From NCBI GenBank assembly GCA_012813795.1, contig GCA_012813795.1_4087.1: DNA of 64,000 bases. The stretch is one strand, 5' to 3'. How positions within the stretch are numbered: position 1 is the stretch's first letter; the number at the start of each line of letters is the position of its first letter. The DNA comes from a phage. The position numbers and the translations under genes were made by a program. Shown in pieces: positions 62,524 to 63,821 of the stretch. Under the pieces are notes generated by a model that was given only the letters and a program-made list of their open reading frames with translations, was not told the origin of the DNA and searched no databases.

Positions 62524-63072
62524 TTATAAGTAACTAATCAGTAAATTCTCGGATTGAACAAGATGTTCTAATTCCATTTTAGCAGTTCCTATGAAGTTTT
62601 GTGTCATAAGATTATTATATCCTGCTTCTCGGTTTTGTCCCTTTGAATAACGAGAAATGTGACATAAATTAACACCAGCCACTTCTGCACTTGCATGTTT
62701 AGCAGTACTGTATCCATCGCGAATCGCTTTCAATTCTTCGTAAGTAACTTCATAACTATAGCTATGGGTATGTGCTCCTGGATATAGTTCGTAAGTTTTC
62801 AATGGTTTCAATTGTTCGATAAAAATATTATAATTCATCTCTTCCTGAATTTCACGGAATAGTGCATCTTCTAAGGTGGCATCGGTATCTTCGACTGTTC
62901 CACCACAACCACCCAGTAAACCATCCCAACGAAGCTGGAGTAATACCAGATTCACAACAGGGATATCATTTAATTCATAACCTTTATATGGGTTACAATT
63001 TCGAGCAAAGAAGTAACAGAATACAAAGTTTGCTCGTTTACCATACTCACCTAGAGGTACTTCTCGAATCAT
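62524..63072 (-). CDS. Nudix-like hydrolase (divergent Nudix box)
   Basis: LGGCGGTVEDTDATLEDALFREIQEE approximates GX5EX7REUXEE with a short insertion. Confidence 0.45.
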   Translation of the reverse strand: MIREVPLGEYGKRANFVFCYFFARNCNPYKGYELNDIPVVNLVLLQLRWDGLLGGCGGTVEDTDATLEDALFREIQEEMNYNIFIEQLKPLKTYELYPGAHTHSYSYEVTYEELKAIRDGYSTAKHASAEVAGVNLCHISRYSKGQNREAGYNNLMTQNFIGTAKMELEHLVQSENLLISYL

Positions 63073-63821
63073 TTCATTCTATCCTTAATGATAGTTTCCA
63101 GTACTGGAATCGCTTTTGTAGCTGGTTTTATAATTTTTTCATTGAACATGAAATCGTTATCATTTTTTCTGATGTTGATATTAACACTAAAGCATGGTAA
63201 ACAAGCAACCAGATGTGACCATTTCAGTACTGTGTCACTGCTACCAATGACTACAACTGTATCATCTTCTGTTAAGGATTGCAATACTAAATTACGCTCA
63301 TCGTATATTGGGAGTTTTTCACCATCAACATAACGATAATATTCACCAATGAACACTACGTTTGGTTTCGCAAAGACACCTTCTTTCGGAATGTACGGTT
63401 CATAACCACAATCCACAATACTATAATCGTCACCACCAATTGTAAAATTCTCAATAACTTCTTTTAAATTACCATGTAACTTTAATTCATTACCACCAAT
63501 ACGAGTATAGAGATCATCCATATTCGAAGTCATATGTAAAAAGTTATCCCCGTATGTATCTTCTAGAGATTTGATATAATAATGCATATCATTAGGAACA
63601 CAATCTTTCATTTTATCACGTAATGTATTATAGAAAGTGTGTACTAAATGATACTTAGTACTAAGACGTGCAATGTTACATACATCATTTATTTGAAATT
63701 GATCCCATAGACCATCGTCCATGCGAAACGGTTCCATCCCACTTTCAACGGATAGACCTGCACCGGAAATAACCAATACACGTTTATTACCTTTATTTTT
63801 TATAAAAGAGTCAGAAATCAT
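63069..63821 (-). CDS. Sir2-family (sirtuin-like) NAD-dependent protein
   Basis: VLVISGAGLSVESGMEPFR (GAGxSxxSGxxxFR), LHGNL, VVFIGE and VVVIGSS sirtuin blocks; no obvious zinc-ribbon cysteines. Confidence 0.6.
   Translation of the reverse strand: MISDSFIKNKGNKRVLVISGAGLSVESGMEPFRMDDGLWDQFQINDVCNIARLSTKYHLVHTFYNTLRDKMKDCVPNDMHYYIKSLEDTYGDNFLHMTSNMDDLYTRIGGNELKLHGNLKEVIENFTIGGDDYSIVDCGYEPYIPKEGVFAKPNVVFIGEYYRYVDGEKLPIYDERNLVLQSLTEDDTVVVIGSSDTVLKWSHLVACLPCFSVNINIRKNDNDFMFNEKIIKPATKAIPVLETIIKDRMK

What the first reader, a model, noticed from the sequence alone, without database searches (positions are those of the whole stretch)
62524..63821. Sir2-like and Nudix-like genes side by side, with a macro-domain gene elsewhere (25378-25854): a possible NAD/ADP-ribose module
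Sirtuin-family enzymes consume NAD and release ADP-ribose derivatives; Nudix hydrolases and macro domains process ADP-ribose. A zinc-ribbon-less Sir2 next to a Nudix-like gene in a lytic phage is unusual. It could ADP-ribosylate host proteins, or counter host defences that signal through or deplete NAD. The Nudix and macro assignments rest on motifs only.
Basis: partly seen in the sequence, partly recalled or inferred. Interest (0 to 1): 0.65.

Follow-up and report, generated by a model that had tools for sequence, protein, structure and literature searches.

The report
Phage sirtuin–Nudix–cREC RNA-repair-type operon
The Sir2 and Nudix genes are real and sit in a conserved five-gene operon of giant E. 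coli phages that had already been predicted, but never tested, to use NAD+ for mending cut RNA, so this is a confirmed member of a known predicted system, not a new one.

Summary
63069-63821(-) is a CobB-like sirtuin with all NAD/catalytic motifs and no zinc-ribbon cysteines. 62524-63072(-) is a NUDT16-family Nudix with its catalytic glutamates. 25378-25854(-) is a Poa1p/BT1257-type macro domain. The window is an Asteriusvirus jumbo phage, 98.9% identical to Escherichia phage A4.

The operon is Sir2, Nudix, cREC (62180-62512), a four-cysteine membrane protein (61884-62183) and PIN-PhoH (60380-61819). This order is kept in 16 of 16 related loci while the flanks turn over, and Nudix and cREC are fused in the divergent relatives.

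The same zinc-less sirtuin clade sits beside RNA ligase 1, cREC and a kinase in Vequintavirinae, and beside an RNA-repair HAD phosphatase in T5-like phages. Iyer et al. 2022 (PMC9503650) already described this as a predicted sirtuin-centred, NAD+-dependent RNA-repair system. I found no experimental test.

The macro gene is 37 kb away, unlinked and far more widespread. It lies near tRNA-related genes.

In non-Asteriusvirus relatives the block follows NAMPT, NMNAT-Nudix and an Acb1-family 2H gene, so a counter-defence or NAD-metabolite role remains a live rival.

Verdict: already known as a kind. The mechanism is inferred only.

The parts
63818..64000 (-). 3' part of a small ORF (70 aa in phage A4, A4_470). 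Its stop overlaps the Sir2 start. It is probably the first gene of the transcription unit and runs off the window end.
   Evidence: A4 annotation, L001 9819-10031 = window 63818-64030. In A4 a hairpin plus a weak promoter-like site lies just upstream, at L001 10083-10027, outside the window. The ORF is shared only with the closest relatives.
63069..63821 (-). Zinc-ribbon-less, CobB-like (class III-like) sirtuin. It is the predicted NAD+-consuming enzyme of the module.
   Evidence: Pfam SIR2 6.5e-20. CobB 1.7e-21. AF2 pLDDT 90.7 and Foldseek CobB TM 0.78/0.85. Invariant G20 G22 T98 N100 D102 D103 H116 G117 E160 G193 S195 Y64 R68. No zinc ligands.
62524..63072 (-). NUDT16-family Nudix hydrolase. 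It is predicted to cleave the pyrophosphate of ADP-ribose derivatives, or of NAD/ADPr-type RNA 5' caps.
   Evidence: Pfam Nudt16-like 3.4e-19 and NUDIX 1.7e-6. NUDT16/X29/TIRR structures at 1.7e-13 to 1e-8. Invariant R73 E74 E77 E78 E61 E68 in 17 homologues. Fused to cREC in L010-L019.
62180..62512 (-). cREC (cyclic-phosphate processing receiver-like) domain protein, a predicted phosphoesterase.
61884..62183 (-). Small single-pass membrane protein with four invariant cysteines. It is specific to this block and its role is unknown.
   Evidence: PHROG 14661 at 1.3e-32. TM segment about residues 6-24. Invariant C47 C52 C82 C92. Found in only 70 phage records, all Rak2-like jumbo phages, always between cREC and PIN-PhoH.
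60380..61819 (-). PIN-PhoH (PhoH2-type) fusion: a PIN endoRNase domain plus a PhoH P-loop ATPase. It is the last gene of the unit.
   Evidence: Pfam PhoH 1e-43 and PIN_4 1.2e-21. The ATG start at 61819 follows A4 annotation and an AAGGA ribosome-binding site. The PIN acidic residues and Walker A/B motifs are invariant.
60344..60372 (-). Perfect extended sigma-70 consensus promoter directly after the PIN-PhoH stop. It marks the start of the next transcription unit.
   Evidence: TTGACA-17-TATAAT, 12 of 12 matches with TG. No terminator-like or strong promoter-like site lies inside 60380-63821 on the minus strand.
25378..25854 (-). Poa1p/BT1257-type macro domain. It is a plausible ADP-ribose-1''-phosphate or ADPr-conjugate hydrolase. 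It is not genomically linked to the Sir2 operon.
   Evidence: It lies in a cluster with a PTH2-like gene (24660-25037, sub-threshold), glutaredoxin (26441-26689), a second Nudix (26694-27110) and CCA-adding enzyme (27197-28309).

Best explanation
The finding is part of a conserved jumbo-phage operon: (small ORF)-Sir2-NUDT16-like Nudix-cREC-membrane protein-PIN-PhoH. It is the Asteriusvirus version of the sirtuin-centred, NAD+-dependent RNA end-processing (repair) system predicted by Iyer et al. 2022.

Proposed mechanism (inferred, not shown):
1. Host or phage metal-independent RNases cut tRNA or other RNA, leaving 2',3'-cyclic phosphate ends.
2. A phosphoesterase (cREC here; HAD-SAK or 2H enzymes in other lineages) opens or removes the cyclic or 2'-phosphate.
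3. The zinc-less sirtuin uses NAD+ as Tpt1/KptA does. A phosphate oxygen attacks C1'' and releases nicotinamide. The His-activated 2''-OH then attacks phosphorus, releasing ADP-ribose 1'',2''-cyclic phosphate and a clean 2'-OH.
4. cREC linearises that product and the fused or adjacent Nudix cleaves its pyrophosphate to AMP plus ribose phosphates.
5. The unlinked Poa1p-type macro domain could remove the 1''-phosphate.
6. The phage's own Pnkp, Rnl1, RlaP and CCA-adding enzymes finish healing and sealing.

Shown here: domain identities, intact catalytic residues, operon structure, block conservation, the Nudix-cREC fusion, and the recurrent link of this sirtuin clade to RNA-repair enzymes.

Inferred: every substrate and every reaction.
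For: Domain identities and intact active sites.

Operon structure: 4-nt overlaps, no internal terminator, and a perfect promoter only after PIN-PhoH.

Block conservation: the five-gene order is kept in 16 of 16 loci down to 38% Sir2 identity, while the genes immediately upstream are replaced.

Fusion: Nudix and cREC form one ORF in L010-L019, confirmed by Pfam on L011, which is Serratia phage BF.

Independent lineages carrying the same zinc-less sirtuin clade (shared D.GY..P small-domain motif):
- PVP-SE1 and KB57 have metallophosphoesterase, RNA_lig_T4_1 (3e-13), cREC (4e-6 and 1e-7), AAA_33 kinase (1.4e-11) and Sir2.
- T5-like HildyBeyeler has Sir2 followed by HAD_SAK_2, an 'RNA repair' phosphatase (1.2e-20).

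RNA-repair toolkit in the genome: RlaP (PF10127, 2.1e-17) and CCA-adding enzyme lie in the window. Pnkp and Rnl1 lie 16-18 kb beyond the operon in PBECO4.

KptA distribution: KptA homologues occur in 98 phage records. None of the 50 evenly spaced rows listed belongs to a Sir2-bearing lineage. This fits functional substitution.

Published prediction: PMC9503650 section 3.7.3 and PMC7824862 section 3.4.8.

Chemical plausibility rests on established mechanisms. Both sirtuins and Tpt1 start with attack of a substrate oxygen on NAD+ C1'', followed by attack of the ADPr 2''-OH. Class III sirtuins bind anionic acyl groups through Tyr/Arg, and Y64 and R68 are invariant here.
Against: No experiment exists for any component.

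The sirtuin looks like an ordinary CobB-type deacylase apart from the zinc site. The acyl-pocket positions are largely conserved.

Sir2, Nudix and cREC are all acidic, with pI 5.2, 5.1 and 4.35. That is not typical of RNA-binding enzymes, although this is weak evidence.

T4-type Pnkp removes cyclic phosphate completely, so a 2'-phosphate remover is not obviously needed.

PIN nucleases are metal-dependent and do not make cyclic ends.

In relatives the block sits beside NAD+ salvage genes and an Acb1-family anti-CBASS-type gene, which points to counter-signalling.

KptA neighbourhoods in other jumbo phages show no cREC, Nudix or 2H partners, so there is no parallel context.

The lack of Sir2/KptA overlap could simply reflect lineage.
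Confidence: 0.45

Rival explanations
1. Counter-defence metabolite module. Sir2, Nudix and cREC act on small NAD+/ADP-ribose-derived or cyclic-phosphate molecules. They would destroy immune signals or recycle NAD+ breakdown products, working with NAD+ salvage.
For: In all 15 non-Asteriusvirus loci the block is preceded within 6 kb by NMNAT-Nudix and NAMPT, the NARP2-type pair. In L006-L019 it is directly preceded by an Acb1-family 2H phosphodiesterase, PF23474 at 1e-15 to 4e-15.

The Nudix-cREC fusion suggests consecutive steps on one small substrate.

All three enzymes are acidic.

Phage NAD+ reconstitution pathways are established counter-defences (PMC13464706).
Against: The window's own lineage lacks NAMPT, NMNAT-Nudix and Acb1-like genes near the block and among the best NAMPT hits, yet keeps the core.

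A NAD+-consuming sirtuin is an odd tool for restoring NAD+.

The partners in Vequintavirinae and T5-like phages are RNA ligase, kinase and HAD-SAK, not signalling enzymes.

No PADLOC or anti-defence model matched the Sir2 or cREC.
Confidence: 0.25
2. Protein-directed sirtuin. It is a CobB-derived deacylase or mono-ADP-ribosyltransferase that remodels host or phage proteins. Nudix, and possibly the macro domain, clear O-acyl-ADPr or ADPr.
For: The closest relative by sequence and fold is the bona fide deacylase CobB. The catalytic His and NAD+-binding motifs are invariant. The acyl-pocket positions are mostly conserved. From established knowledge, NUDT16 removes protein ADP-ribose, and macro domains deacetylate OAADPr.
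Against: The zinc ligands that hold the peptide-binding small domain together in canonical sirtuins are lost across the whole clade. The recurring context is RNA end-processing. The macro gene is not linked. This reading gives no role to cREC or PIN-PhoH.
Confidence: 0.2
3. RNA 5'-end and decay module. The NUDT16-like enzyme removes NAD, ADPr or other non-canonical caps, PIN-PhoH degrades the RNA, and the sirtuin makes or uses NAD-derived RNA adducts. The purpose would be host shut-off or RNA turnover, not repair.
For: NUDT16/X29 are decapping enzymes, and this is the family match. PIN-PhoH is an RNase-ATPase fusion and is the most conserved gene of the block.
Against: It does not explain the Nudix-cREC fusion. 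It does not explain the link with RNA ligase in other lineages. There is no direct evidence.
Confidence: 0.07

Closest known systems
Phage sirtuin-centred NAD+-utilising RNA-repair system, configuration 1 (Iyer, Burroughs, Anantharaman, Aravind 2022, Viruses 14:1977; prototype Serratia phage BF)
   Same: It has the same sirtuin clade and the same partners: Nudix, cREC and a PIN endoRNase. Phage BF itself is locus L011 in my set and shares the gene order.
   Different: The Asteriusvirus version has separate Nudix and cREC genes and lacks the adjacent 2H gene. My analysis adds three points: the '2H' is of the Acb1 family, NAMPT and NMNAT-Nudix are adjacent in the relatives, and a four-cysteine membrane protein is a constant block member.
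E. coli CobB / class III sirtuins (SIRT5-like)
   Same: It is the best sequence and fold match. The GAGxS, TxNxD, HG, FGE and GSS motifs and Tyr64 are kept.
   Different: No zinc-binding cysteines are present. The YxxR arginine is shifted by one residue in the jumbo subclade (L67, R68). A clade-specific CNI motif and D.GY..P small-domain motif are present, and there is an 8-residue insert after FGE.
Tpt1/KptA - CPDase (2H) - Poa1p pathway of tRNA splicing and repair
   Same: Each step has a candidate analogue here: an NAD+-consuming transferase (Sir2), a cyclic-phosphate opener (cREC), an Appr1p phosphatase (Poa1p-type macro) and an ADPr pyrophosphatase (Nudix).
   Different: The transferase and the opener have unrelated folds (sirtuin rather than ART, REC-like rather than 2H). 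The analogy is untested. KptA itself is absent from the Sir2-bearing lineages sampled.
Human NUDT16 / Xenopus X29 (and the inactive paralogue TIRR)
   Same: The family-level match covers residues 28-178, and the catalytic REUxEE glutamates are kept, unlike in TIRR.
   Different: It is a phage protein of unknown substrate, and in relatives it is fused to cREC.
SirTM-macro operons (ADP-ribosylating sirtuins; Rack et al. 2015, as cited in PMC9503650)
   Same: A sirtuin without a canonical zinc ribbon occurs in a genome that also has a macro domain.
   Different: The macro gene is 37 kb away and not co-distributed. The catalytic His is retained. The operon partners are different.
Defence-type Sir2 NADases (ThsA, DSR, Sir2-HerA)
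   Same: They share the Sir2 fold and use of NAD+.
   Different: No PADLOC model matched. This protein is phage-encoded and standalone, with no sensor domain.

Membership tests
Sir2/sirtuin superfamily (PF02146) | Rossmann-type NAD+-binding fold with GAGxS, TxNxD and catalytic HG motifs | tested here: met
   Pfam 72 bits against a cutoff of 24. The motifs are invariant in 19 sequences. Model TM to CobB is 0.78/0.85.
Sir2/sirtuin superfamily (PF02146) | Four-cysteine zinc ribbon in the small domain | tested here: not met
   There are 0-2 cysteines and no CxxC between HG and KPNV in all 19 members, and none in the T5-like, Vequintavirinae or KVP40-like members.
Sir2/sirtuin superfamily (PF02146) | NAD+-dependent lysine deacylase activity | not testable with these tools
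   This needs an enzyme assay.
Class III (CobB/SIRT5) sirtuins | YxxR motif recognising anionic acyl groups | tested here: inconclusive
   Y64 is kept. The Arg at +3 is Leu in the jumbo subclade, and R68 at +4 is invariant. The T5-like and Vequintavirinae members keep RR.
Phage sirtuin RNA-repair system, configuration 1 (Iyer 2022) | Sirtuin of the phage clade linked to Nudix, cREC and a PIN endoRNase | tested here: met
Phage sirtuin RNA-repair system, configuration 1 (Iyer 2022) | Adjacent 2H phosphoesterase | tested here: not met
   It is present in L006-L019 as an Acb1-family 2H gene. No homologue was found in the window, in the A4 flank or in 170 kb of PBECO4.
Phage sirtuin RNA-repair system, configuration 1 (Iyer 2022) | RNA 2'-phosphate removal by the sirtuin | not testable with these tools
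   This is a prediction only. No experiment was found.
NUDT16-like Nudix (PF22327) | Profile match above cutoff and intact Nudix-box glutamates | tested here: met
   69.8 bits against a cutoff of 27. R73 E74 E77 E78 are invariant and aligned with NUDT16 RELREE.
cREC (PF20274) | Receiver-like fold with DD and DHD acidic motifs and no histidine-kinase partner | tested here: met
Macro domain (Poa1p/BT1257/DarG-like branch) | Macro fold with ADP-ribose-binding loops | tested here: met
   Pfam Macro is sub-threshold, 17.5 bits against a cutoff of 22. BT1257 8.5e-14, Poa1p 6e-8, PHROG 335 1.6e-43 and DarG 1.8e-10 support it. The CN..G.GSGF and IGADLGGG loops are visible in the alignment.
SirTM-macro type sirtuin/macro pair | Sirtuin and macro genes adjacent and co-distributed | tested here: not met
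   They are 37 kb apart, in different clusters, with 2420 against 988 phage records.
Anti-phage defence Sir2 effectors | Match to defence-system Sir2 models or fusion to sensor domains | tested here: not met
   No PADLOC hit for the Sir2. The protein has a single domain of 250 aa.
NARP2 NAD+ reconstitution (NAMPT + NMNAT) | NAMPT and NMNAT genes present | tested here: not met
   They are absent from the window and from the Asteriusvirus sequence examined. No Asteriusvirus record appears among the best 60 NAMPT hits. They are present next to the block in relatives.

The most novel reading that the evidence does not exclude
The zinc-less phage sirtuin is the first sirtuin whose physiological substrate is a nucleic-acid phosphate. 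It would be a non-homologous replacement of Tpt1/KptA that removes RNA 2'-phosphates, or ADP-ribosylates RNA ends, with NAD+. cREC would be a new receiver-fold phosphoesterase acting on ADP-ribose cyclic phosphate. In relatives the whole pathway would be closed into an NAD+ cycle by the adjacent NAMPT and NMNAT. The idea was published as a prediction in 2022. What would be new is its demonstration.
Probability: 0.3. Interest if true: 0.75.

Novelty: already known. Interest (0 to 1): 0.4.

Why it matters
If the prediction is right, sirtuin chemistry would extend from protein deacylation to RNA repair. A receiver-domain fold would gain an enzymatic role. It would also help explain why about 2% of sequenced phages carry a zinc-less sirtuin. 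That covers T5-like phages, Vequintavirinae and Rak2-like jumbo phages, groups that include phages isolated on clinical E. coli, Klebsiella and Salmonella strains. It would show how these phages survive RNA-cutting host defences.

For the scan itself, the result is that the finding is real but belongs to an already described, experimentally untested system.

Tried and rejected
- PADLOC scan of the operon proteins gave no Sir2 or cREC defence model. Only weak Nudix and DarG-like macro hits appeared.
- NCBIfam gave only sub-threshold CobB-type hits, so the Sir2 is not an equivalog of any curated deacylase.
- There are no tRNA genes and no Rfam family in the window.
- cREC has no solved homologue by sequence.
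- Gene contexts of three distant cREC proteins were uninformative. Their neighbours were uncharacterised phage genes plus HSP20, ClpS and AAA_28.
- The word-indexed homologue search for the Nudix returned only close relatives.
- I tested whether KptA in other jumbo phages has the same partners. No cREC, Nudix or 2H was found next to KptA in three lineages, so non-homologous displacement within a shared context has no support.
- No RNA ligase lies near RlaP in the window. The Rnl1 and Pnkp genes lie outside the window.
- Literature searches found no experimental work on a phage sirtuin or on cREC. One search failed on syntax.
- The macro gene as a module member is rejected on linkage and distribution. 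It is kept only as a plausible accessory in trans.
- The single representative-library job and the last fold search were not used.
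Full report
**What is there**

The window is a jumbo myovirus of the genus Asteriusvirus. Region 60000-64000 is 98.9% identical to Escherichia phage A4 and 76-80% identical to PBECO4-like phages. Almost all genes run on the minus strand.

The finding's coordinates hold two ORFs that overlap by 4 nt: 63069-63821 (250 aa) and 62524-63072 (182 aa).

The first is a sirtuin.
- Pfam SIR2 scores 6.5e-20.
- The closest solved protein is E. coli CobB at 1.7e-21.
- An AF2 model with pLDDT 90.7 superposes on CobB with TM 0.78/0.85 at 29% identity.
- In 19 family members the NAD+-binding and catalytic residues are invariant: G20, G22, T98, N100, D102, D103, H116, G117, E160, G193, S195.
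- The segment that forms the zinc ribbon in CobB has no CxxC pairs.

The second is a Nudix of the NUDT16/X29 family. Pfam Nudt16-like scores 3.4e-19, and NUDT16 structures match at about 2e-13. The catalytic glutamates of the Nudix helix (R73 E74 .. E77 E78) are invariant in 17 homologues.

The gene at 25378-25854 is a macro domain of the Poa1p/BT1257/SCO6735/DarG branch, although Pfam's generic Macro model is sub-threshold.

All three domain calls and the 'zinc-ribbon-less' remark are therefore confirmed.

Directly downstream, with 4-11 nt overlaps or gaps, lie three more genes:
- a cREC domain protein at 62180-62512 (Pfam cREC_REC 1.8e-22);
- a 99-aa single-pass membrane protein at 61884-62183;
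- a PIN-PhoH fusion at 60380-61819.

There is no terminator-like site inside the run. A perfect extended sigma-70 promoter appears only after the PIN-PhoH stop. Upstream, a 70-aa ORF overlaps the Sir2 start and runs off the window. In A4 it is preceded by a hairpin and a weak promoter-like site.

**Is the grouping meaningful?**

Seventeen IMG/VR loci encode a relative of the Sir2, nearly all from 345-380 kb phage genomes.

In all 16 loci that extend far enough, the order Sir2-Nudix-cREC-membrane-PIN-PhoH is kept. This holds down to 38% Sir2 identity.

A control with the A4 flanking genes shows turnover around the block. The genes just upstream of Sir2 (small ORF, HslV-like, ClpP-like) are shared only with the nearest relatives, and the downstream flanks are only partly shared. 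The block therefore persists as a unit.

The membrane protein occurs in only 70 phage records. All are Rak2-like jumbo phages, and it always sits in this position. Its four cysteines are invariant.

**Independent lineages**

Sir2 homologues occur in 988 phage records. Alignment shows that the jumbo, Vequintavirinae, T5-like and KVP40-like proteins share the zinc-less small domain with a D.GY..P motif. CobB and a remote metagenomic relative (L020) keep cysteines.

- In PVP-SE1 and KB57 the sirtuin lies in a run of metallophosphoesterase, RNA ligase 1 (Pfam 3e-13), cREC (my HMM, 4e-6 and 1e-7), AAA_33 kinase (1.4e-11), Sir2, DNA ligase and MazG.
- In T5-like HildyBeyeler the sirtuin is followed by an HAD_SAK_2 'Swiss-army-knife RNA repair' phosphatase at 1.2e-20.

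Across three lineages, then, the constant partner of this sirtuin is an aspartate-based phospho-processing enzyme, together with RNA healing and sealing enzymes.

**The literature already has this**

Iyer et al. named cREC in 2021 (PMC7824862, section 3.4.8). [quoted passage not shown] Configurations 2 and 3 match the Vequintavirinae and T5-like contexts (PMC9503650, section 3.7.3). They proposed that the sirtuin acts like KptA/Tpt1, and they noted that no macro gene is adjacent.

I reproduced their contexts with independent tool calls. I found no experimental follow-up.

**Mechanism**

The best-supported reading is the pathway given under Best explanation.
- Chemically it is plausible. In both sirtuins and Tpt1 a substrate oxygen attacks NAD+ C1'', and the ADP-ribose 2''-OH then attacks the electrophilic centre.
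- Class III sirtuins already bind anionic groups through Tyr/Arg. Y64 and R68 are invariant here.
- The genome carries the rest of an RNA-repair kit. RlaP (41379-42620) and CCA-adding enzyme (27197-28309) lie in the window. Pnkp and Rnl1 lie 16-18 kb further on in PBECO4.
- KptA homologues occur in 98 phage records. None of the 50 rows sampled belongs to a Sir2-bearing lineage.

Several points weigh against it.
- The three enzymes are acidic.
- The acyl pocket looks intact.
- T4-type Pnkp leaves no 2'-phosphate.
- KptA neighbourhoods show no parallel partners.

**A competing signal**

In every non-Asteriusvirus relative the block is preceded by an NMNAT-Nudix fusion and NAMPT. In L006-L019 it is directly preceded by an Acb1-family 2H phosphodiesterase, with PF23474 at about 1e-15 while the generic 2H model is sub-threshold.

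NAMPT plus NMNAT is the NARP2-type NAD+ reconstitution pair (PMC13464706). Acb1 is, by its Pfam family name, an anti-CBASS nuclease. This makes a counter-defence or NAD-metabolite role a serious rival. It could equally mean that the salvage genes feed a NAD+-consuming repair enzyme.

The window's lineage lacks all three genes locally, and no Asteriusvirus record appears among the best NAMPT hits. The core therefore works without them.

**The macro gene**

It is a real macro domain but is not linked. It lies 37 kb away, in a cluster with a sub-threshold PTH2-like gene, a glutaredoxin, a second canonical Nudix and the CCA-adding enzyme. Its family occurs in 2420 phage records, including T4-like phages. 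Its Poa1p-type affinity makes it a reasonable Appr1p phosphatase acting in trans. That is inference only.

**Verdict**

The feature is an already described, computationally predicted system whose biochemistry is still untested.

The modest additions here are:
- the Acb1-family identity of the '2H' gene;
- the adjacency of NAMPT and NMNAT-Nudix in relatives;
- the block-specific four-cysteine membrane protein;
- the flank-turnover control;
- the NUDT16-family assignment of the Nudix with intact catalytic residues.

Noticed in passing
L005-L019 (e.g. L011 3812-7757; L006 731-7983): In all non-Asteriusvirus relatives the Sir2 block is preceded by an NMNAT-Nudix fusion and NAMPT, the NARP2-type NAD+ salvage pair. 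In L006-L019 it is also preceded by an Acb1-family 2H phosphodiesterase immediately upstream of Sir2. None of the three has a homologue in the window or in the Asteriusvirus sequence examined.
   Followed up: partly
window 61884-62183: A 99-aa single-pass membrane protein with four invariant cysteines (C47, C52, C82, C92). It is found only in Rak2-like jumbo phages (70 records) and always lies between cREC and PIN-PhoH. It is not mentioned in the published description of the system, and its role is unknown.
   Followed up: partly
window 60344-60372 (minus strand): A perfect extended sigma-70 consensus promoter (TTGACA-17-TG-TATAAT, 12 of 12) lies 8 nt after the PIN-PhoH stop codon.
   Followed up: no
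window 24660-28309: The macro gene sits in a tRNA/translation-flavoured cluster. It holds a PTH2-like ORF (24660-25037, Pfam 5e-4, sub-threshold), macro, two small ORFs, glutaredoxin (26441-26689), a canonical Nudix (26694-27110) and CCA-adding enzyme (27197-28309). An HPF/S30AE ribosome-hibernation homologue lies at 30577-30909.
   Followed up: partly
window 41379-42620: An RlaP-family (RNA ligase-associated Pol-beta) nucleotidyltransferase, PF10127 at 2.1e-17. No RNA ligase lies next to it. In PBECO4 the Rnl1 and Pnkp genes lie outside the window region.
   Followed up: partly
L005 7998-8738 (RaK2); proteins P0012, P0013: The RaK2-type sirtuins have GNG in place of GAG and have lost the FR of the G(I/M)xxFR cofactor-loop motif (..FDLYD..). 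They keep N100, D102 and H116. NAD+ binding may be altered or degenerate in that lineage, yet the block is retained.
   Followed up: no
L009 7992-8752: The Sir2 gene is split into two ORFs (7992-8240 and 8237-8752). This is a frameshift, so either a pseudogene or an assembly error.
   Followed up: no
L006-L009, about 8750-9121: An extra ORF of about 123 aa with no Pfam match is inserted between Sir2 and Nudix in one subgroup.
   Followed up: no
phage collection: KptA/Tpt1 homologues occur in 98 phage records. These are mainly 250-307 kb Erwinia, Dickeya and Klebsiella jumbo phages and C. difficile phages. None of the 50 rows sampled belongs to a lineage carrying the zinc-less sirtuin.
   Followed up: partly
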